Source: Candidatus Deferrimicrobium sp. (GTDB taxonomy: Archaea > Asgardarchaeota > Lokiarchaeia > Helarchaeales > HEL-GB-A). From it: DNA of 10,532 nt. The position numbers were made by a program, and so were the translations under genes. Below, piece by piece: positions 287 to 10,532 of this stretch; position 1 is the stretch's first letter, and every line of letters begins with the position of its first letter. The notes under the pieces were generated by a model. The model did not search any database, was not told where the DNA came from, and was given only the letters and a program-made list of their open reading frames with translations. The stretch covers positions 1-10,532 of the forward strand of contig DATKTP010000169.1 in NCBI GenBank assembly GCA_035531115.1. Reading direction: 5' to 3'.

Positions 287-808
287 TTATTTATTCCTCA
301 ACCTATGAATTATTGTCTTAATGATTTTTTCGAAAGCAGCTTCTACCTGCACCCCAGTTTTTGCGGAAGTTTCAATATATTCTATCGCTTTCAATTCAGT
401 TGCAAGTTTTTTTCCCTCTTCTTCAGAAATAACCCGCTGATCCGTCAAGTCTGCTTTATTCCCAACGAGAATAAAAGGAACATCACCCGCAAAGGTTATC
501 AGTTCCTTCAACCATGCTCTAATATGATCAAATGTCGCTTTCTGGGTAAGGTCAAATAAGAGAAGCGCTCCATTTGTACCTTGTAAATATTCCTCGCGAA
601 TCGTCTCAAATATTGTCTGACCTGCTAAATCCCAAATAAGCAATTCTGCTTCTATTCCTTCCTCTTGGATCTTAATGGTTTTCAACGCGATATCAAAGCC
701 AATGGTAGGTTTATATTCCTCAATAAATCGCTTATCCACATGGCGGATTATCATTGAAGTCTTTCCTACCGCACCATCTCCTAATACACAAAGCTTCAAA
801 ATATGCAT
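287..808 (-). CDS. Ras/Rab-like small GTPase (173 aa)
   Basis: All G-boxes are present: G1 GDGAVGKT, switch I YKPTIGFD, G3 WDLAGQ, G4 GNKAD, G5 ETSAK. AGAGGA lies about 10 nt upstream of the ATG. There is no C-terminal Cys prenylation motif (the protein ends RLRNK). Confidence 0.9.
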   Translation of the reverse strand: MHILKLCVLGDGAVGKTSMIIRHVDKRFIEEYKPTIGFDIALKTIKIQEEGIEAELLIWDLAGQTIFETIREEYLQGTNGALLLFDLTQKATFDHIRAWLKELITFAGDVPFILVGNKADLTDQRVISEEEGKKLATELKAIEYIETSAKTGVQVEAAFEKIIKTIIHRLRNK

Positions 809-6226: not shown

Positions 6227-7102
6227 TTACTCTGCAGAACCTTTATCATTTTCTTGAATATCTGTCTCTGGTTTAGTATCTGATTCCTTTTCAGGGAGTG
6301 GACCTTTAATGAGCTCTTCTACCTTTTTCACTTTTTTTCTTTTAACTTCTTCTTTAGGTTCTTCTACGAGTTCTTCTTCAGGCAATTCCTCAGGTGCTTC
6401 TTCTAAGTCTTCTTCCGCTTCTCCTTCTTCTTTTGTGCCAATCTTTTCTAAAATCTTCTTTTGATCACCTATAATATCGTAACTTATCGCAGCTCTTGAC
6501 TGGAAACTGTTCATATCGATGTTGAAATCTTCAGGTTTTCCAATTTCCCCTTTATCTAGCAGCGCCGACCTTGTGAGTAACCAGAAAAGTAACGCGAGGG
6601 CTTTTCTGCCACGATTATTCGCTGGAACACATAAGTCTATATTGCCCATGTTATTATCGGTATCACAGAAACTGATGACAGGAATTTTTGCAATTTTCGC
6701 TTCCTTTAAGGCTTGTTTATCGGCTCGCGGATCGGTGATTACTAGTAGATCACATTCAATAAAACTGCGTGCATTAGGATTCGTCAATGTGCCAGGAACA
6801 AATCTGCCAGGAATTGCATGACTACCAATTAACCGCGCAAATTGTTGAATAGGATTATGCCCATAACGCCGCGCAGAAACAATCACGATTCGATCTGGAT
6901 CAAATCGTGAAATAAACTTAGAGGCAATGCGCATTCGTTCGTCAGTCTTTCTGATATCAATTACATAGAGCCCTGCTCTTGTAATTCGATAAATAAATTC
7001 TTCCATATCCTTAGTTTTAATCTGGGTTCCTATATGAATACCTGCGGCCAAGTACTGATCTCGGGGTAATAAGAGATCATCCTCTTTTACTTCTTCCGTC
7101 AT
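6227..7102 (-). CDS. rps2: 30S ribosomal protein uS2 (S2/SA type) with a long charged C-terminal extension (291 aa)
   Basis: The core LLAAGIHIGTQ...YVIDIRKT...IVIVSAR...GRFVPGTLTNP...LLVITDPRADKQALKEA..IPVISFCDTDN is the archaeal/eukaryotic uS2 fold. Residues from about 205 to 291 are E/K/P-rich low complexity. Confidence 0.93.
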   Translation of the reverse strand: MTEEVKEDDLLLPRDQYLAAGIHIGTQIKTKDMEEFIYRITRAGLYVIDIRKTDERMRIASKFISRFDPDRIVIVSARRYGHNPIQQFARLIGSHAIPGRFVPGTLTNPNARSFIECDLLVITDPRADKQALKEAKIAKIPVISFCDTDNNMGNIDLCVPANNRGRKALALLFWLLTRSALLDKGEIGKPEDFNIDMNSFQSRAAISYDIIGDQKKILEKIGTKEEGEAEEDLEEAPEELPEEELVEEPKEEVKRKKVKKVEELIKGPLPEKESDTKPETDIQENDKGSAE

Positions 7103-8773: not shown

Positions 8774-8913
8774 TGCAGGGGGTGGGGCTTCCGAACCCCT
8801 GAATTCAGGAGCTTTTCGAACCCACGGAAACAGGTCAAAAACGCTACGTTTTCAATCTCCTGCGAGACTGGATCTTAAGTCCAGCGCCGTTGGCCTGGCT
8901 TGGCTACCCCTGC
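8774..8913 (-). tRNA. tRNA-Leu (anticodon UAA), 140 nt, with two inferred non-canonical introns
   Basis: Minus strand reads GCAGGGG-TA-GCC-AAGCCAGGCCAAC-GGC-G-CTGGA-CTTAAGA-TCCAG...GTGGG...CCCAC-CCCCTGC-A. There are 42 nt between the anticodon stem and T stem (8826-8867), versus about 14-16 expected for a Leu variable arm. There are 34 nt between the T-stem strands (8787-8820), versus a 7-nt loop. This implies introns of about 26 nt and 27 nt. Exact splice sites are ambiguous because GGGTTCGAAAAGC and GGGGTTCGGAAGC are near-duplicates. Confidence 0.8.
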
Positions 8914-8928
8914 TATACTTCTGATCAG

Positions 8929-9061
8929 TGCCGGGGGCGGGCTTCGGTCCCGCGATCTCCGGATTTCACAGGCCGTGCATTTCTCAATCTACCTTATGAG
9001 TCCGGCGCAGTGGTCACCTAATCATCATGGTTACATTATAACCAAGCTATGCTACCCCGGC
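8929..9061 (-). tRNA. tRNA-Met elongator (anticodon CAU), 133 nt, with a D-loop intron and a canonical anticodon-loop intron
   Basis: GCCGGGG-TA-GCAT-AGCTTGGTTA-[28 nt, ~9011-9038]-CTGC-G-CCGGA-CTCATA-[30 nt, 8965-8994]-A-TCCGG-AGATC-GCGGG-ACCGAAG-CCCGC-CCCCGGC-A. The G1-C72 pair indicates an elongator rather than an initiator. The T loop ACCGAAG is atypical. Confidence 0.75.
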
Positions 9062-9178
9062 ATAACTAATCTTCTGTATGAAAATTTTTAATAGCGGGTA
9101 TTATTAAATATTTCTAAGGTAGAAAAAAGTTCCTTTTTACACCGCCCCCCCTACAATGGACCCTCTGTGAAAAACGGT

Positions 9179-9251: not shown

Positions 9252-9438
9252 TCCTTCTTCTTAAGCACGAAGAACATATAATACATTTACATGCATGAAA
9301 CTCCCTGCTCTGGTCTTCAAATCCTCGTTGTATCTATTGAAACGGTATTTAATACAAAAATTATTCCTTCTATCTCATTAATAAAATTAGAACAAATGTT
9401 GCAATCCTTGTACAAGAATGCCTCATTTTATAGTGAAA

Positions 9439-9543
9439 TGGGCCGGATGGGATTTGAACCCACGACCTCTGGTTCCCAAAACCAGAATCTTCGCCAACTC
9501 AGGCAGAAATACCTGACTCTATACCAAACTAGACCACCGACCC
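9439..9543 (-). tRNA. tRNA-Pro (anticodon UGG), 105 nt, with a ~30-nt intron in the D-arm
   Basis: GGGTCGG-TG-GTCT-AGTTTGGTAT-AGA[~30 nt, ~9488-9517]T-T-CTGGT-TTTGGGA-ACCAG-AGGTC-GTGGG-TTCAAAT-CCCAT-CCGGCCC-A. The intron boundary is ambiguous within a duplicated AGA. The mature length would be 75 nt. Confidence 0.85.
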
Positions 9544-9552
9544 AATGAAAGA

Positions 9553-9723
9553 TGGGGATGAAGGGATTTGAACCCTTGATTATTACTCGAAATACCCTTT
9601 TCCTGGGTATCTCCCTGGGTCTCGCCAGGAATCGCTCCAGAACCTCGTCATCCTTGCGTCAGCAGACCCTAGTTCTAAAATCCTTCTGGAGCCCAGCATC
9701 TTGCCTGGCTTGATTACATCCCC
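9553..9723 (-). tRNA. tRNA-Trp (anticodon CCA), 171 nt, with a 77-nt intron at 37/38 and a ~20-nt intron near the variable-loop/T-stem boundary
   Basis: GGGGATG-TA-ATC-AAGCCAGGCAA-GAT-G-CTGGG-CTCCAG-[77 nt, 9609-9685]-A-CCCAG-GAAAA-[~20 nt, ~9578-9597]-AAGGG-TTCAAAT-CCCTT-CATCCCC-A. The 3' splice site fits BHB geometry: CTCC (positions 32-35) pairs with GGAG, then comes the 3-nt bulge ATA, then the CCCAG stem. The gene ends 9 nt upstream of tRNA-Pro, so the two are probably co-transcribed. Confidence 0.8.
9609..9685 (-). ncRNA. tRNA-Trp intron with box C/D-like guide architecture (internal D'/C' pair good, terminal boxes degenerate)
   Basis: The intron reads AAGGATTTTAG-AACTAGGGTCTG-CTGA-CGCAAGG-ATGACGA-GGTTCTGGAGCG-ATTC-.... 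CTGA (9659-9662) and ATGACGA (9645-9651) are 7 nt apart, like a D'/C' K-loop. Each is flanked by a 12-nt element complementary to the tRNA-Trp anticodon arm. Confidence 0.5.
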
Positions 9724-9996
9724 TTGCGAGAATCATACTGCCATATCTGAAATGAGATCTGACCATACGAGAACCACTTTGCCATACCCAGGAGGGTCGC
9801 TCTCGCCTCTTCTTTCCTCGAAAGAAAGGTAAATCTCAAATGGAGTATATCTTGCTAGAATGGTGGAAGCTCTCTATTAAAAAGATTCTCCCCTCATTTG
9901 TATTTAGATTTTTTTATAAAAATAATTTTCATTGTAAAAATTTATTTAAAAATTTGATTTAAACGGAAGATCGATGAGGGAACATCAATAATTTCA

Positions 9997-10044
9997 GGGA
10001 GAAGCGAAGAGAGAAGGAGAAGAAGAAAGAGAAGCGAGAAGGGA
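9997..10044. repeat. 48-nt polypurine (plus) / polypyrimidine (minus) tract, imperfect mirror repeat
   Basis: gggagaagcgaagagagaaggagaagaagaaagagaagcgagaaggga has 46 of 48 purines and contains gagaagcga twice. On the minus strand it is a C/U-rich run immediately 3' of the 5S trailer helix. Confidence 0.9.
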
Positions 10045-10069
10045 TAGATTTGCTCATGTGGGACTCACT
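10042..10069 (-). other. 5S trailer arm of a bulge-helix-bulge processing stem
   Basis: Minus-strand RNA reads ...CGGC-AG^A-GTGAG-tcccacatgag-CAAATCTATCC. GTGAG (10064-10068) and CAAATCTATCC (10042-10052) pair with the leader arm. AGA (10069-10071) is a 3-nt bulge. Confidence 0.7.
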
Positions 10070-10190
10070 CTGCCGTGTTCGGGATGAGAACGGGTATTAC
10101 CTCTCAGCTATGACCGACCCGAAGATCAGCTTTTTGACCTTCCCGCAGGCTCTCGCACTGCAGTACAAATCAGAACGTGTGAGAGCTTGA
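10070..10190 (-). rRNA. Circularly permuted 5S rRNA gene (121 nt between the predicted BHB cleavage sites)
   Basis: Minus strand reads TCAAGCTCTCAC-ACGTTCTGATT-TGTA-CTGCAG-TGCGAGAGC-CTGCGG-GAA-GGTCAAAAAG-CTGATC-TTCG-GGTCGG-T-CATA-GCTGAGAGG-TAATA-CCCGT-TCTCATCCCGAAC-ACGG-CAG. Every conserved 5S block is present (CATAGC, CCCGAAC loop C, AAGC, GTACTG...GCGAGAG...GGGAA), but the order is 3' part, then helix I hairpin, then 5' part. Confidence 0.8.
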
Positions 10191-10219
10191 TTCGGCGTGA
10201 GCTCAATACAAATCTATCC
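10191..10219 (-). other. 5S leader arm of the bulge-helix-bulge processing stem
   Basis: Minus-strand RNA reads GGATAGATTTG-tattgag-CTCAC-GCCG-AA^T.... GGATAGATTTG (10209-10219) is the perfect complement of 10042-10052. CTCAC (10197-10201) pairs with GTGAG. GCCG (10193-10196) pairs with CGGC (10072-10075). AAT (10190-10192) is the second 3-nt bulge. Confidence 0.7.
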
Positions 10220-10245
10220 AATCTTGCTTGATCGATAGATTGATC

Positions 10246-10252
10246 TATAAAA
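10246..10252 (-). promoter_or_regulatory. Candidate TATA box for the permuted 5S transcription unit
   Basis: The minus strand reads TTTTATA, with about 26 nt between it and the first base of the leader helix (GGATAG...). That spacing fits an archaeal TATA-to-TSS distance. The background is AT-rich, so this is weak. Confidence 0.35.
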
Positions 10253-10532
10253 GTGTACTTATTTTAAAAAAGTTTTGTAATGCTGAAAAAAAAGGTTAGA
10301 TATGGGTTTGAGAAAATGAAGGGGAAAAAGAAAACCAGAATCATTTCCAGAGAGCGAATCCGCAATCCAAATTATTTTGGTAAAAAGAATGAATAATTAA
10401 TGTTTAAATATGATAATTTTAAAATTCTCGTATATTGGTCCGAATGAGATAAAATTGCCAAAATTTTTTAATACCTAGTTAAATTTATTCCTTTAGCCTA
10501 GATAAGGTTTGAAAAAAAATACTCTAGATGAA

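What the first reader, a model, noticed from the sequence alone, without database searches (positions are those of the whole stretch)
10042..10219. Circularly permuted 5S rRNA gene bracketed by a bulge-helix-bulge motif, predicting a covalently circular 121-nt 5S rRNA
Seen in sequence: on the minus strand the 5S 3' portion comes first (helix II 3' strand GCTCTCAC, helix V, loop E GTA/GAA, helix IV CTGCAG/CTGCGG, loop D). It is followed by CTGATC-TTCG-GGTCGG and then the 5S 5' portion (CATAGC, helix II TGAGAG, helix III CCGT/ACGG, loop C TCTCATCCCGAAC). Helix I is therefore a 6-bp hairpin (two G-U pairs) capped by a cUUCGg tetraloop, where a normal gene has its 5' and 3' ends. The new ends fall between helix III and helix II. 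The flanks pair. There is an 11-bp perfect helix (10042-10052 with 10209-10219) and a 5-bp helix CTCAC/GTGAG. Next come a 3-nt bulge AGA on the 3' strand, a 4-bp helix GCCG/CGGC, and a 3-nt bulge AAT on the 5' strand. That is the bulge-4bp-bulge geometry cut by the archaeal splicing endonuclease. Cutting at symmetric positions in the two bulges always releases 121 nt, which is 5S size. Joining the ends gives ...GAACACGGCAG^TCAAGCTCTCAC. This restores the consensus ...GAACCCGG-AAGTT-AAGC... with the correct 5-nt spacing and a central AGT. Established knowledge: BHB cleavage plus RtcB ligation circularises archaeal introns and pre-16S/23S intermediates. Permuted genes repaired this way are known for some tRNAs and for Thermoproteus SRP RNA. 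I do not know of a permuted or circular 5S rRNA. Standard 5S covariance models would probably miss this locus or only partly hit it, which could explain apparently missing 5S genes in related genomes. Caveats: there is no inner h' helix after the second bulge. Helix II has only 6 Watson-Crick pairs, flanked by C-C and G-G mismatches.
Basis: partly seen in the sequence, partly recalled or inferred. Interest (0 to 1): 0.93.

Follow-up and report, generated by a model that had tools for sequence, protein, structure and literature searches.

The report
Permuted 5S rRNA gene, Asgard archaea
This is a 5S ribosomal RNA gene whose two halves are encoded in swapped order between cut signals for the archaeal splicing enzyme, so the working RNA is most likely cut out and joined into a closed ring; the same layout occurs across Asgard archaea, the closest known relatives of eukaryotes, and explains why their 5S genes escape standard annotation.

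Summary

- **Gene layout.** Window 10042-10219 (minus strand) encodes a 5S rRNA in the order 3' part, then helix I closed by a cUUCGg loop, then 5' part.
- **Rfam.** RF00001 misses the locus at its threshold. It matches the two halves separately, in swapped order (34.4 and 15.3 bits).
- **Relatives.** A pattern scan of GTDB species genomes gave 31 hits. 27 are the same permuted gene, and all 27 lie in Asgard archaea (Heimdall, Hod, Njord, Loki/Hel, Hermod, Jord, Frey).
- **Cut signal.** All 26 distinct precursors carry a helix / 3-nt bulge / 4-bp helix / 3-nt bulge motif at the new ends. The motif sits in three different registers, yet cutting and joining always restores the 5S consensus ...CGG-AAGU-UAAG... 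in a 120-131 nt product.
- **Covariation.** It is strong in the flanking helices and in all the 5S helices that vary (helix III is nearly invariant).
- **Model test.** A permuted covariance model scores the window at 116.5 bits. The same sequences rotated to canonical order find ordinary bacterial 5S genes full length.
- **Literature.** No paper on this was found. One paper on complete Heimdall genomes says 5S genes "could not be predicted".

Cleavage, ligation and circularity are inferred; no RNA data were available. The motif competes with helix III in predicted folds.

The parts
10244..10253 (-). TATA-like box (CTTTTATAGA), about 25-30 nt upstream of the outer helix; putative archaeal promoter of an independent transcription unit
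   Evidence: Read from the sequence. Comparable A/T boxes lie upstream in the loci with enough upstream sequence. Function is inferred, not tested.
10209..10219 (-). 5' arm of the outer processing helix (GGATAGATTTG)
   Evidence: Pairs perfectly with 10042-10052. The Helarchaeota relative L109 has GGTTTAGATTTG / CAAATCTAAACC, with changes on both strands that keep the pairing.
10197..10202 (-). 5' strand of helix h of the cut motif ((G)CTCAC)
   Evidence: Pairs with 10063-10068. The five pairs of h nearest the cut motif are formed in 26 of 26 sequences, with 4-6 pair types each.
10193..10196 (-). 5' strand of the central 4-bp helix H (GCCG)
   Evidence: Pairs with CGGC at 10072-10075. Other lineages have CCGG/CCGG, CGUG/CACG, GUCG/CGGC and CUGG/CCGG.
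10190..10192 (-). 3-nt bulge AAU on the 5' strand; predicted 5' cut (between 10191 and 10190 if the cut follows the second bulge base)
   Evidence: Geometry. The exact cut position within the bulge rests on established knowledge of the splicing endonuclease and is not tested here.
10070..10190 (-). Permuted 5S rRNA, 121 nt: 3' part (helix II 3' strand, helix V, loop E, helix IV, loop D), helix I hairpin, then 5' part (loop A, helix II 5' strand, helix III, loop C)
   Evidence: Rfam matches to the two halves. The permuted model R1 scores 116.5 bits, E about 1e-23, at 10071-10191. Covariation in all 5S helices that vary.
10113..10130 (-). Helix I closed as a hairpin: GCUGAUC-UUCG-GGUCGGU, where an ordinary gene has its 5' and 3' ends
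   Evidence: In 24 distinct sequences helix I is paired in 100% of cells and 3 of 6 pairs covary. Loops are 3-5 nt in all but one of the 26 sequences as scored.
10072..10075 (-). 3' strand of helix H (CGGC); overlaps the 3' strand of 5S helix III (ACGG)
   Evidence: The competition with helix III is quantified.
10069..10071 (-). 3-nt bulge AGA on the 3' strand; predicted 3' cut (between 10070 and 10069)
10063..10068 (-). 3' strand of helix h (GUGAG(U))
10042..10052 (-). 3' arm of the outer processing helix (CAAATCTATCC)

Best explanation
The locus is the functional 5S rRNA gene of a Helarchaeota-like Asgard archaeon, encoded in circularly permuted order.

**Proposed pathway**
1. The gene is transcribed from its own promoter as a precursor of about 180 nt (inferred).
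2. Leader and trailer pair to form an outer helix, helix h and a 4-bp helix H. H is flanked by two 3-nt bulges on opposite strands. This is a relaxed bulge-helix-bulge motif without the inner helix h' (shown in sequence and by covariation).
3. The archaeal splicing endonuclease EndA cuts in both bulges and releases a 121-nt RNA (inferred).
4. The RNA ligase RtcB joins its ends, as it does for tRNA introns and pre-16S/23S rRNAs (inferred).
5. The new bond recreates the ...CGG-CAGU-CAAGC... linker between helix III and helix II. The 3' strand of helix III is then free to leave helix H and form helix III (inferred).
6. Helix I stays closed by a UUCG tetraloop, so the mature 5S rRNA is a covalently closed circle (inferred).

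The arrangement is shared by at least eight named Asgard lineages (shown).
For: **Identity and order**
- Rfam 5S matches both halves in swapped order. The matches abut at model positions 51-54, exactly at the bulges.
- The permuted model R1 gives one full-length hit of 116.5 bits in the window. It gives 58-91 bits in lineages left out of the model.
- Model R2, built from the same RNAs rotated to canonical order, finds ordinary bacterial 5S genes full length: 57.3 bits against 28.2 bits with R1. On Asgard DNA R2 breaks into two partial hits, 53.2 and 28.6 bits in the window.

**Conservation**
- 27 of 31 hits of a permutation-specific pattern in 185,579 species genomes are this gene, all in Asgard archaea, including three records labelled as chromosomes.
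- The neighbouring genes DnaG and S2 and the tRNA genes are kept in relative L130.

**Cut motif**
- It is present in 26 of 26 distinct precursors, giving products of 120-131 nt.
- 88% of cells are paired against 56.7% in shuffles. 13 of 14 pairs change on both sides. The covariation score is 0.789 against 0.173. Sliding the partner strand gives 31-44% paired.
- Three registers exist: CCGG-AA|G...CCGG-AA|A, GCCG-AA|U...CGGC-AG|A and CGUG-AA|A...CACG-GA|A. All yield the same ligated consensus.

**5S fold in permuted topology**
- 95.8% of cells are paired against 76.8% in shuffles. 22 of 35 pairs change on both sides.
- Helix I is capped by loops of 3-5 nt in nearly all sequences, many of them UUCG-, UACG- or CUUG-type.

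**Enzyme and context**
- Asgard archaea are reported to carry the (alpha-beta)2 EndA with the L1 loop, the type linked to relaxed motifs (PMC5829648).
- The window itself holds three tRNA genes with introns at non-canonical sites.

**The gap this fills**
- Rfam finds no 5S in 20 Asgard loci.
- Wu et al. 2022 could not predict 5S genes in complete Heimdall genomes.
Against: - No RNA data were available. Cleavage, ligation and circularity are all inferred.
- The 3' strand of helix H is also the 3' strand of 5S helix III. The full motif (H, h and both bulges unpaired) appears in the predicted minimum-energy fold of only 3 of 26 precursors. Forcing it costs 0-1.3 kcal/mol in the window, Hel, Jord/Frey and L023 groups. 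It costs 1.7-7 kcal/mol in the other lineages, the Heimdall/Hod group among them.
- There is no inner helix h'.
- The H pair next to the missing h' is mismatched (A-C or G-A) in 6 of 22 sequences.
- I could not scan the rest of this genome, or whole Asgard genomes, for a canonical 5S gene. Only 21 kb of the source contig were checked.
- No sequence labelled Thor, Odin or Baldr was among the hits. Their S2 neighbourhoods held no 5S of either kind.
- Part of the covariation in helix H comes from the register shifts between lineages rather than from independent substitutions.
Confidence: 0.78

Rival explanations
1. Circular intermediate, linear product. The precursor is cut and circularised as above. 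The circle is then reopened in or near the helix I loop, giving an ordinary linear 5S rRNA. This would parallel permuted tRNAs in Cyanidioschyzon merolae, or Pyrococcus 23S rRNA, which is reopened at helix 98.
For: Known precedents reopen circles: PMC7758197 and other papers listed, and C. merolae tRNAs as cited in PMC4267664. Nothing in the sequence forbids a nuclease acting on the loop.
Against: The helix I caps are only 3-5 nt in nearly all sequences and are often thermostable tetraloops (UUCG, UACG, CUUG). There is no spacer, tRNA-like element or second cut motif. With 7-8 pairs in most lineages, an opened helix I would be short and weak. Loop sequences are kept within lineages, as expected for a structural cap.
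Confidence: 0.1
2. Linear permuted 5S. The ends are trimmed or cut at the motif but never joined. The ribosome then carries a 5S with a nick between helix III and helix II and a closed helix I, analogous to the linear permuted mitochondrial 5S of brown algae.
For: Linear permuted 5S rRNAs exist and are expressed (PMC4267664). Helices II and III could hold a nicked molecule together.
Against: A conserved, covarying cut motif is not needed just to make ends. Three different registers all give exactly the consensus linker with no base lost or gained. That points to selection on a joined sequence. By established knowledge, the cyclic-phosphate and 5'-OH ends left by the endonuclease are the natural substrates of RtcB, and the excised archaeal RNAs studied so far are circularised.
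Confidence: 0.08
3. Non-functional remnant. The locus is a rearranged pseudogene, or a piece of a tandem 5S array, and the real 5S gene is canonical and lies elsewhere in the genome.
For: I could not scan the whole genome. A degenerate partial 5S copy does exist next to the gene in one relative (L140 3223-3330). Some MAG descriptions list a 5S gene as present (PMC9723677).
Against: The sequence and fold are kept with compensatory changes across phylum- or class-level distances, which pseudogenes do not show. The flanks are not 5S halves; they are complementary helices. Each of the three chromosome-labelled records gives exactly one hit to the scan pattern. No 5S could be predicted in complete Heimdallarchaeum genomes.
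Confidence: 0.03
4. Assembly artefact: short-read assemblers collapsed or chimerised a repeated 5S array.
For: The window comes from a short-read metagenome contig (ENA ERZ27256847).
Against: The same structure appears in 27 independent assemblies from different projects, including records labelled as chromosomes. Lineage-specific sequences and unique flanking genes differ between them.
Confidence: 0.01

Closest known systems
Circularly permuted SRP RNA gene of Thermoproteus
   Same: An essential structured non-coding RNA is encoded with its 3' part before its 5' part. Bulge-helix-bulge motifs sit at the new ends. Cutting and ligation restore the conserved sequence, and the functional RNA is a closed circle.
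   Different: It is a different RNA (7S, not 5S) in a narrow crenarchaeal group. Here the design spans at least eight named Asgard lineages and concerns a ribosomal RNA.
Permuted tRNA genes (Cyanidioschyzon merolae; Thermofilum pendens)
   Same: The gene halves are swapped, the canonical ends are joined by a short linker, and a bulge-helix-bulge motif at the new ends is processed through a circular RNA (cited in PMC4267664, and PMC5829648).
   Different: The tRNA circles are reopened at the acceptor stem by RNase P and tRNase Z to give linear tRNAs. Here no reopening signal is visible and the cap is a tetraloop.
Circular pre-16S/pre-23S rRNAs, and circular or permuted mature 23S rRNA in archaea
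   Same: A processing stem with a bulge-helix-bulge motif is cut by EndA and the product circularised by RtcB. In several lineages the circular or permuted 23S is the form found in the ribosome (PMC7758197; PMC12918454; bioRxiv 2026.03.23.713588).
   Different: Those genes are collinear, and the ligation joins the natural ends. Here the gene itself is permuted, so ligation is needed to rebuild an internal segment. PMC12918454 explicitly excludes 5S from this pathway.
Permuted mitochondrial 5S rRNA of brown algae and other stramenopiles (Rfam mtPerm-5S; Valach et al. 2014, PMC4267664)
   Same: It is a 5S rRNA whose helix I is replaced by a closed hairpin, with its termini elsewhere in the molecule.
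   Different: Its ends lie at the three-way junction (loop A). The RNA stays linear, with no cut motif and no ligation. It is organellar. No Rfam 5S family, mtPerm-5S included, reached its gathering threshold on the window or on 20 Asgard loci.
Low-abundance circular 5S reads in Sulfolobus and Halobacterium (Danan et al. 2012, PMC3326292; PMC12558985)
   Same: Covalently circular 5S-derived RNAs have been detected in archaea.
   Different: They come from ordinary collinear genes. Their junctions are variable, they are minor species, and the authors read them as possible degradation or processing intermediates. No permuted gene or cut motif is involved.

Membership tests
5S rRNA (Rfam RF00001) | Collinear match to the covariance model at or above the gathering score (38 bits) | tested here: not met
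   No hit at the gathering threshold. The whole locus gives 24.7 bits, covering the 5' half only. 20 related loci give no hit either.
5S rRNA (Rfam RF00001) | All conserved elements present: loop A CAUAG, loop C CAUCCCGAAC, loop E GUA/GAA, helices I-V, length about 120 nt | tested here: met
   The two halves match model positions 1-54 (34.4 bits) and 51-114 (15.3 bits). The rotated-order model R2 finds ordinary bacterial 5S genes full length at 57.3 bits. All the 5S helices that vary covary. Products are 120-131 nt.
5S rRNA (Rfam RF00001) | Incorporated in the large ribosomal subunit | not testable with these tools
   Needs ribosome purification or cryo-EM.
Substrates of the archaeal splicing endonuclease (bulge-helix-bulge motif) | Two 3-nt bulges on opposite strands separated by a 4-bp helix, each bulge lying 3' of its strand of the central helix | tested here: met
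   Window: GCCG/CGGC with bulges AAU and AGA. Found in 26 of 26 precursors, with H paired at 4 of 4 positions in 19 sequences and 3 of 4 in 7. That this arrangement is the canonical one is taken from established knowledge.
Substrates of the archaeal splicing endonuclease (bulge-helix-bulge motif) | Outer helix h | tested here: met
   5-16 contiguous pairs. The five pairs of h nearest the cut motif are formed in 26 of 26 sequences, with 4-6 pair types each.
Substrates of the archaeal splicing endonuclease (bulge-helix-bulge motif) | Inner helix h' (strict hBHBh' form) | tested here: not met
   No pairing continues inward; both strands run into 5S structure (read from the sequences). The motif is therefore the relaxed hBH form. 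PMC5829648 reports that Asgard archaea have the (alpha-beta)2 EndA with the L1 loop, the type linked to relaxed motifs.
Substrates of the archaeal splicing endonuclease (bulge-helix-bulge motif) | The motif is the favoured fold of the precursor | tested here: inconclusive
   The full motif is in the minimum-energy fold of 3 of 26 precursors. Forcing it costs 0-7 kcal/mol because H competes with helix III. The 178-nt window precursor does fold into it.
Substrates of the archaeal splicing endonuclease (bulge-helix-bulge motif) | Actual cleavage by EndA and ligation by RtcB | not testable with these tools
   Needs an in vitro assay or RNA sequencing.
Circularly permuted RNA genes repaired by splicing (permuted tRNAs, Thermoproteus SRP RNA) | 3' part encoded upstream of 5' part, with the canonical termini joined by a short linker | tested here: met
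   Linkers are 3-5 nt loops in nearly all sequences.
Circularly permuted RNA genes repaired by splicing (permuted tRNAs, Thermoproteus SRP RNA) | Cutting and joining at the motif restores the conserved sequence and spacing | tested here: met
   The junction reads ...CGG(A/C)A^GU(U/C)AA... or its equivalent in all 26 sequences, from three registers. It matches the Rfam consensus Cgg-AAgu-UAAGc.
Circularly permuted RNA genes repaired by splicing (permuted tRNAs, Thermoproteus SRP RNA) | Circular RNA detected | not testable with these tools
Permuted mitochondrial 5S (Rfam mtPerm-5S) | Termini at the loop A junction, linear product, match to the family model | tested here: not met
   The break here lies between helix III and helix II. 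No Rfam family other than tRNA reaches its threshold.

The most novel reading that the evidence does not exclude
The mature 5S rRNA in the ribosomes of most Asgard archaea, including Heimdallarchaeia and Hodarchaeales, is a covalently closed circle made from a permuted gene. The arrangement would then date back to an early Asgard ancestor. In that case the archaeal lineage that gave rise to eukaryotes carried a permuted gene and a circular 5S. The collinear, often tandemly repeated, eukaryotic 5S genes would have to be a secondary re-linearisation, for example by copying of the circle back into DNA.
Probability: 0.45. Interest if true: 0.95.

Novelty: new variant of a known kind. Interest (0 to 1): 0.9.

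Why it matters
- **A universal ribosome component.** 5S rRNA is generally treated as a simple linear transcript. A recent paper on archaeal rRNA circularisation explicitly excludes 5S from that pathway (PMC12918454). If this reading holds, a whole major archaeal group makes its 5S from a scrambled gene that only works after RNA cutting and joining.
- **A practical puzzle solved.** It explains why 5S genes are reported as unpredictable in complete Asgard genomes (PMC8813620). The permuted model R1 built here separated the permuted genes (58-137 bits) from ordinary 5S genes (28 bits). A model of this kind could be used to annotate such genomes and to improve MAG quality calls that require a 5S gene.
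- **More work for the splicing enzymes.** The essential substrates of the endonuclease and RtcB would extend to a third rRNA.
- **Ribosome structure.** It predicts a closed helix I in Asgard ribosomes.
- **Eukaryote origins.** The design is present in Heimdall and Hod lineages, so it raises a concrete question about how the eukaryotic 5S gene arose.
- **Directly testable.** All of this can be checked with existing cultures and public RNA-seq data.

Tried and rejected
- **Standard annotation tools.** Rfam at the gathering threshold and ARAGORN saw only tRNA-Thr in the window.
- **First metagenome scan.** Almost all were chance matches; only L023/L085, L030, L064, L109 and L116 were real. A tighter pattern was then used for the genome collection.
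- **RNAalifold on a plain MAFFT alignment.** It recovered only helices III and V and part of IV, because helices I and II were misaligned by one column in some lineages. I therefore built a covariance model from a consistent subset and realigned with it. Such an alignment leans towards the model's structure, so the slide and shuffle controls are reported alongside.
- **Scoring a rotated sequence with Rfam.** Custom sequences cannot be given to that tool. I replaced the test with separate scans of the two halves and a reciprocal pair of models, R1 and R2.
- **Thermodynamic support for the cut motif.** It is weaker than hoped.
- **Extending to Thor, Odin, Baldr and another Loki genome.** I fetched the neighbourhood of the S2 gene. 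No 5S of either order lay within 10 kb, so the status of those lineages is open.
- **The 'Thermoproteota archaeon' label of L145.** It is probably a mislabel: the flanking genes are syntenic with Jordarchaeales.
- **Literature.** The library lacks most subscription journals, so prior publication cannot be excluded.
Full report
**1. What is in the window**

On the minus strand, positions 10219 to 10042 read as follows:

GGATAGATTTG-TATTGAG-CTCAC-GCCG-AAT-[121 nt]-A-GTGAG-TCCCACATGAG-CAAATCTATCC

- The outer arms, 10209-10219 and 10042-10052, are perfectly complementary.
- (G)CTCAC pairs with GTGAG(T).
- GCCG (10193-10196) pairs with CGGC (10072-10075).
- AAT (10190-10192) and AGA (10069-10071) are left as 3-nt bulges on opposite strands.
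- Each bulge lies 3' of its strand of the 4-bp helix. By established knowledge of pre-tRNA introns, this is the arrangement cut by the archaeal splicing endonuclease.
- The minimum-energy fold of the 178-nt stretch reproduces this architecture at -61.4 kcal/mol.

**2. The interior is a 5S rRNA in swapped order**

- Rfam finds nothing here at its curated threshold. Without the threshold it gives only a 24.7-bit hit to the 5' half.
- Scanned separately, 10068-10121 matches RF00001 positions 1-54 (34.4 bits, E 2e-6). 10127-10192 matches positions 51-114 (15.3 bits, E 0.32).
- The two pieces are complementary parts of the model. They lie in the wrong genomic order and meet exactly at the two bulges.
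- Between them, where an ordinary gene has its ends, helix I is closed: GCUGAUC-UUCG-GGUCGGU (10113-10130).
- Joining the ends of the excised RNA gives ...ACGG-CAGU-CAAGC.... The Rfam consensus is ...uCgg-AAgu-UAAGc..., with the same spacing.
- Any symmetric cut position within the bulges gives the same 121-nt length.

**3. Which organism**

- The window encodes a Ras-family GTPase (176 bits), archaeal S2, a DnaG-like Toprim protein and a radical SAM enzyme.
- Its S2 protein is about 80% identical to proteins named Helarchaeota.
- Relative L130 has DnaG (70% amino-acid identity), S2 (78%), the tRNA genes and the same permuted 5S in the same order.
- The source is a 27-kb metagenome contig (ENA ERZ27256847). 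One database labels it as a Deferrimicrobium bacterium, which is almost certainly a binning error.
- The window is therefore from a Helarchaeota-like Asgard archaeon.

**4. Relatives**

- A permutation-specific pattern (loop E, then helix IV, then loop C in that order) was scanned over one genome for each of 185,579 species. It returned 31 loci.
- One is a chance match in a bacterial contig. Three are ordinary Acidobacteriaceae 5S genes with a chance upstream match.
- The other 27 are the same permuted gene. Their labels are:

| Label | Loci |
|---|---|
| Heimdallarchaeota (three labelled as chromosomes) | 5 |
| Hodarchaeota | 5 |
| Promethearchaeota / Promethearchaeati | 5 |
| Uncultured archaeon | 5 |
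| Jordarchaeia / Jordarchaeales | 2 |
| Helarchaeota | 1 |
| Hermodarchaeota | 1 |
| Njordarchaeota | 1 |
| Freyarchaeota | 1 |
| 'Thermoproteota archaeon' | 1 |

- The flanking genes of the 'Thermoproteota archaeon' locus are syntenic with Jordarchaeales, so it is probably a mislabelled Asgard contig.
- An earlier metagenome scan added a few more copies among many chance hits.

**5. The cut motif is conserved and it moves**

- An automatic search found the motif in all 26 distinct precursors. Helix h has 5-16 contiguous pairs and H has 3-4 of 4 pairs. Both bulges are 3 nt and the products are 120-131 nt.
- Shuffling the 3' flank reaches the observed score in 1.4% of trials (111 of 7800).
- On a gap-free alignment anchored at the bulges, 88% of cells pair, against 56.7% in shuffles and 31-44% when the partner strand is slid. 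13 of 14 pairs show changes on both sides. The covariation score is 0.789 against 0.173, and 0 of 500 shuffles reach it.
- The motif sits in three registers relative to the 5S core:

| Lineages | 5' side | 3' side |
|---|---|---|
| Heimdall, Hod, several Loki-type | CCGG-AA\|G-UUAAG | CCGG-AA\|A |
| Window, Helarchaeota | GCCG-AA\|U-CAAGC | CGGC-AG\|A |
| Jord, Frey | CGUG-AA\|A-GUCAA | CACG-GA\|A |

- In every register, cutting and joining gives the same linker, CGG-(A/C)AGU-(U/C)AA. This is what selection on a ligated product predicts. It is hard to explain if the ends were merely trimmed.
- In the Jord and Hel registers the leader is complementary to the 3' strand, not identical to it. The pairing is therefore not just a leftover of a duplicated 5S sequence.

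**6. The 5S fold in permuted topology**

- I built model R1 (121 positions, 35 pairs) from 14 excised sequences with a hand-drawn 5S structure.
- R1 gives one full-length hit in the window: 10071-10191, 116.5 bits, E about 1e-23.
- It also gives full-length hits in lineages left out of the model: Jord, Frey and the Jord-like L145 at 85-91 bits, L124 at 74 bits, and the L023 group at 58-60 bits. Ordinary bacterial 5S genes reach only 28 bits.
- On the resulting alignment (24 distinct rows), 95.8% of cells pair, against 76.8% in shuffles and 32-46% when slid. 22 of 35 pairs change on both sides.
- Helix II bridges the two swapped halves, and 7 of its 8 pairs covary. The helix I hairpin is paired in 100% of cells and 3 of its 6 pairs covary. 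This alignment was fitted to the model, so it leans towards the structure; the controls are large all the same.
- As the reciprocal test I rotated the same RNAs to canonical order, dropped the loop, and built model R2.
- R2 finds ordinary bacterial 5S genes full length: 57.3 bits (E 6e-14) and 37 bits. On Asgard DNA it falls apart into two partial hits, 53.2 and 28.6 bits in the window.
- So the RNA is homologous to 5S over its whole length, and the gene is permuted.

**7. Is the mature RNA a circle?**

- This step is inferred, not shown.
- The helix I stems are 7-13 pairs. The caps are 3-5 nt in nearly all sequences: UUCG in three groups of sequences, plus UUUG, UUAG, CUCG, CUUG, UACG, CACG, AUU, GUU, AAUUA and CGUUA.
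- There is no spacer and no second processing signal, so reopening at helix I looks unlikely.
- By established knowledge, the endonuclease leaves a 2',3'-cyclic phosphate and a 5'-OH. These are the substrates of RtcB, and excised archaeal introns and pre-rRNAs are circularised.
- Asgard archaea are reported to have the (alpha-beta)2 endonuclease with the L1 loop, the type linked to relaxed motifs that lack h' (PMC5829648).
- The window itself carries three tRNA genes with introns at non-canonical positions, so this enzyme system has other work in the same genome.

**8. Caveats**

- The 3' strand of H (CGGC here, CCGG in most lineages) is also the 3' strand of 5S helix III. The motif and helix III cannot form together.
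- In predicted folds helix h is nearly always formed. The full motif appears in the minimum-energy structure of only 3 of 26 precursors. Forcing it costs 0-1.3 kcal/mol in the window, Hel, Jord/Frey and L023 groups, and 1.7-7 kcal/mol in the other lineages, the Heimdall/Hod group among them.
- I read this as a structural switch captured by the enzyme, as happens for tRNA introns at non-canonical sites. That reading is an assumption.
- The H pair next to the missing h' is mismatched in 6 of 22 sequences.
- I could not scan whole genomes for a collinear 5S gene. The 21 kb of the source contig that I could read hold none.
- No sequence labelled Thor, Odin or Baldr was among the hits. Their S2 neighbourhoods held no 5S of either order, so 'pan-Asgard' is not established.

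**9. Transcription signals**

- TATA-like boxes lie upstream in the loci with enough upstream sequence, and T-runs follow in most.
- The window has CTTTTATAGA at 10244-10253 and a pyrimidine-rich tract after 10042, but no clean T-run.
- Heimdall-type loci have longer leaders that pair with the trailer beyond helix h.

**10. What is known**

- Permuted mitochondrial 5S rRNAs exist. They are linear, with their ends at loop A (PMC4267664).
- Minor circular 5S species from ordinary genes have been seen in Sulfolobus and Halobacterium. The authors read them as possible degradation or processing products.
- Circular or permuted 23S rRNA is established in several archaea, and 5S is explicitly described as outside that pathway (PMC12918454).
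- Permuted tRNA genes and the Thermoproteus SRP RNA use the same cut-and-join logic.
- Nine literature searches found no permuted or obligately circular archaeal 5S.
- Rfam release 15 has no family that detects these loci.
- Wu et al. [quoted passage not shown]
- Some MAG descriptions list a 5S gene as present. These may be partial matches to one half, but I did not check that.

**11. Verdict**

- The permuted, conserved, functional 5S gene with a covarying cut motif is shown.
- Endonuclease cleavage, RtcB ligation and a circular mature 5S are the best-supported mechanism (about 0.78) but remain untested.
- This is a new variant of a known kind of system. It is of high interest because it concerns a universal rRNA, spans much of the Asgard group, explains an annotation gap, and can be tested with existing cultures and data.

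Noticed in passing
window 9553-9723 (-): tRNA gene (40.8 bits, above Rfam's threshold of 29) with an 81-nt insert in the anticodon loop and a second insert of about 21 nt in the variable region. It was missed by ARAGORN and by the default Rfam filters. It lies only 7 nt upstream of the next tRNA gene on the same strand.
   Followed up: partly
window 8929-9061 (-): tRNA gene (34.2 bits) with two inserts: about 31 extra nt in the D-loop and about 30 in the anticodon loop. It is probably a two-intron tRNA. It overlaps spurious ORFs on the plus strand (8890-9021 and 8900-9091).
   Followed up: partly
window 9440-9545 (-): The Rfam hit at 9439-9500 (28.1 bits, no D arm) extends upstream to GGGTCGG at about 9545. 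This gives a tRNA with anticodon UGG (Pro) and an intron of about 30 nt in the D-arm. The 85-aa ORF at 9291-9548 (+) overlaps this tRNA gene on the opposite strand and has no Pfam match, so it may be spurious.
   Followed up: partly
window 6227-7102 (-) and the whole contig: The window's S2 protein is recorded at NCBI under 'Candidatus Deferrimicrobium sp.', a bacterium. Its closest named relatives are Helarchaeota (about 80% identity), and the contig carries Asgard-type genes. The contig is probably mis-binned.
   Followed up: partly
window 287-808 (-): Ras-family small GTPase (Pfam Ras, 176 bits), a typical Asgard 'eukaryotic signature' gene. Homologues lie a few kb from the permuted 5S in the L023, L124 and L133 group of loci.
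   Followed up: no
L140 3223-3330 (+): A degenerate partial copy of the first 53 nt or so of the permuted 5S (GUAUUG instead of GUACUG; 20.8 bits). It lies about 240 nt upstream of the intact gene and may be a remnant of a local duplication.
   Followed up: partly
Heimdall/Hod/Loki-type loci, e.g. L142 5236-5449: In the commonest register the precursor begins ...CCGGAAG|UUAAG and ends ...CCGGAA|A. The gene is thus bounded by a direct repeat of a palindrome plus three bases, and the central helix is CCGG paired with CCGG. This is what a tandem duplication of an ordinary 5S gene followed by fusion at helix I would leave behind. It is an origin hypothesis and was not tested.
   Followed up: no
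L145 (JAPDJY010000015.1): The contig is labelled 'Thermoproteota archaeon' but carries a Jord-type permuted 5S. Its flanking genes are 50-65% identical at the protein level to those of Jordarchaeales L138 and lie in the same order. It is probably mislabelled or mis-binned.
   Followed up: yes
L128 and L147 (Hodarchaeota YT1_021): Two contigs of the same MAG each carry a permuted 5S with identical scores (129.5 bits). This is either two gene copies in one genome or redundancy in the bin.
   Followed up: no
window 9990-10041 (-): A pyrimidine-rich tract of about 50 nt (CTTCTCGCTTCTCTTTCTTCTTCTCCTTCTCTCTTCGCTTCTCCC) directly follows the 5S precursor, where relatives mostly have plain T-runs. Whether it acts as a terminator is unknown.
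   Followed up: no
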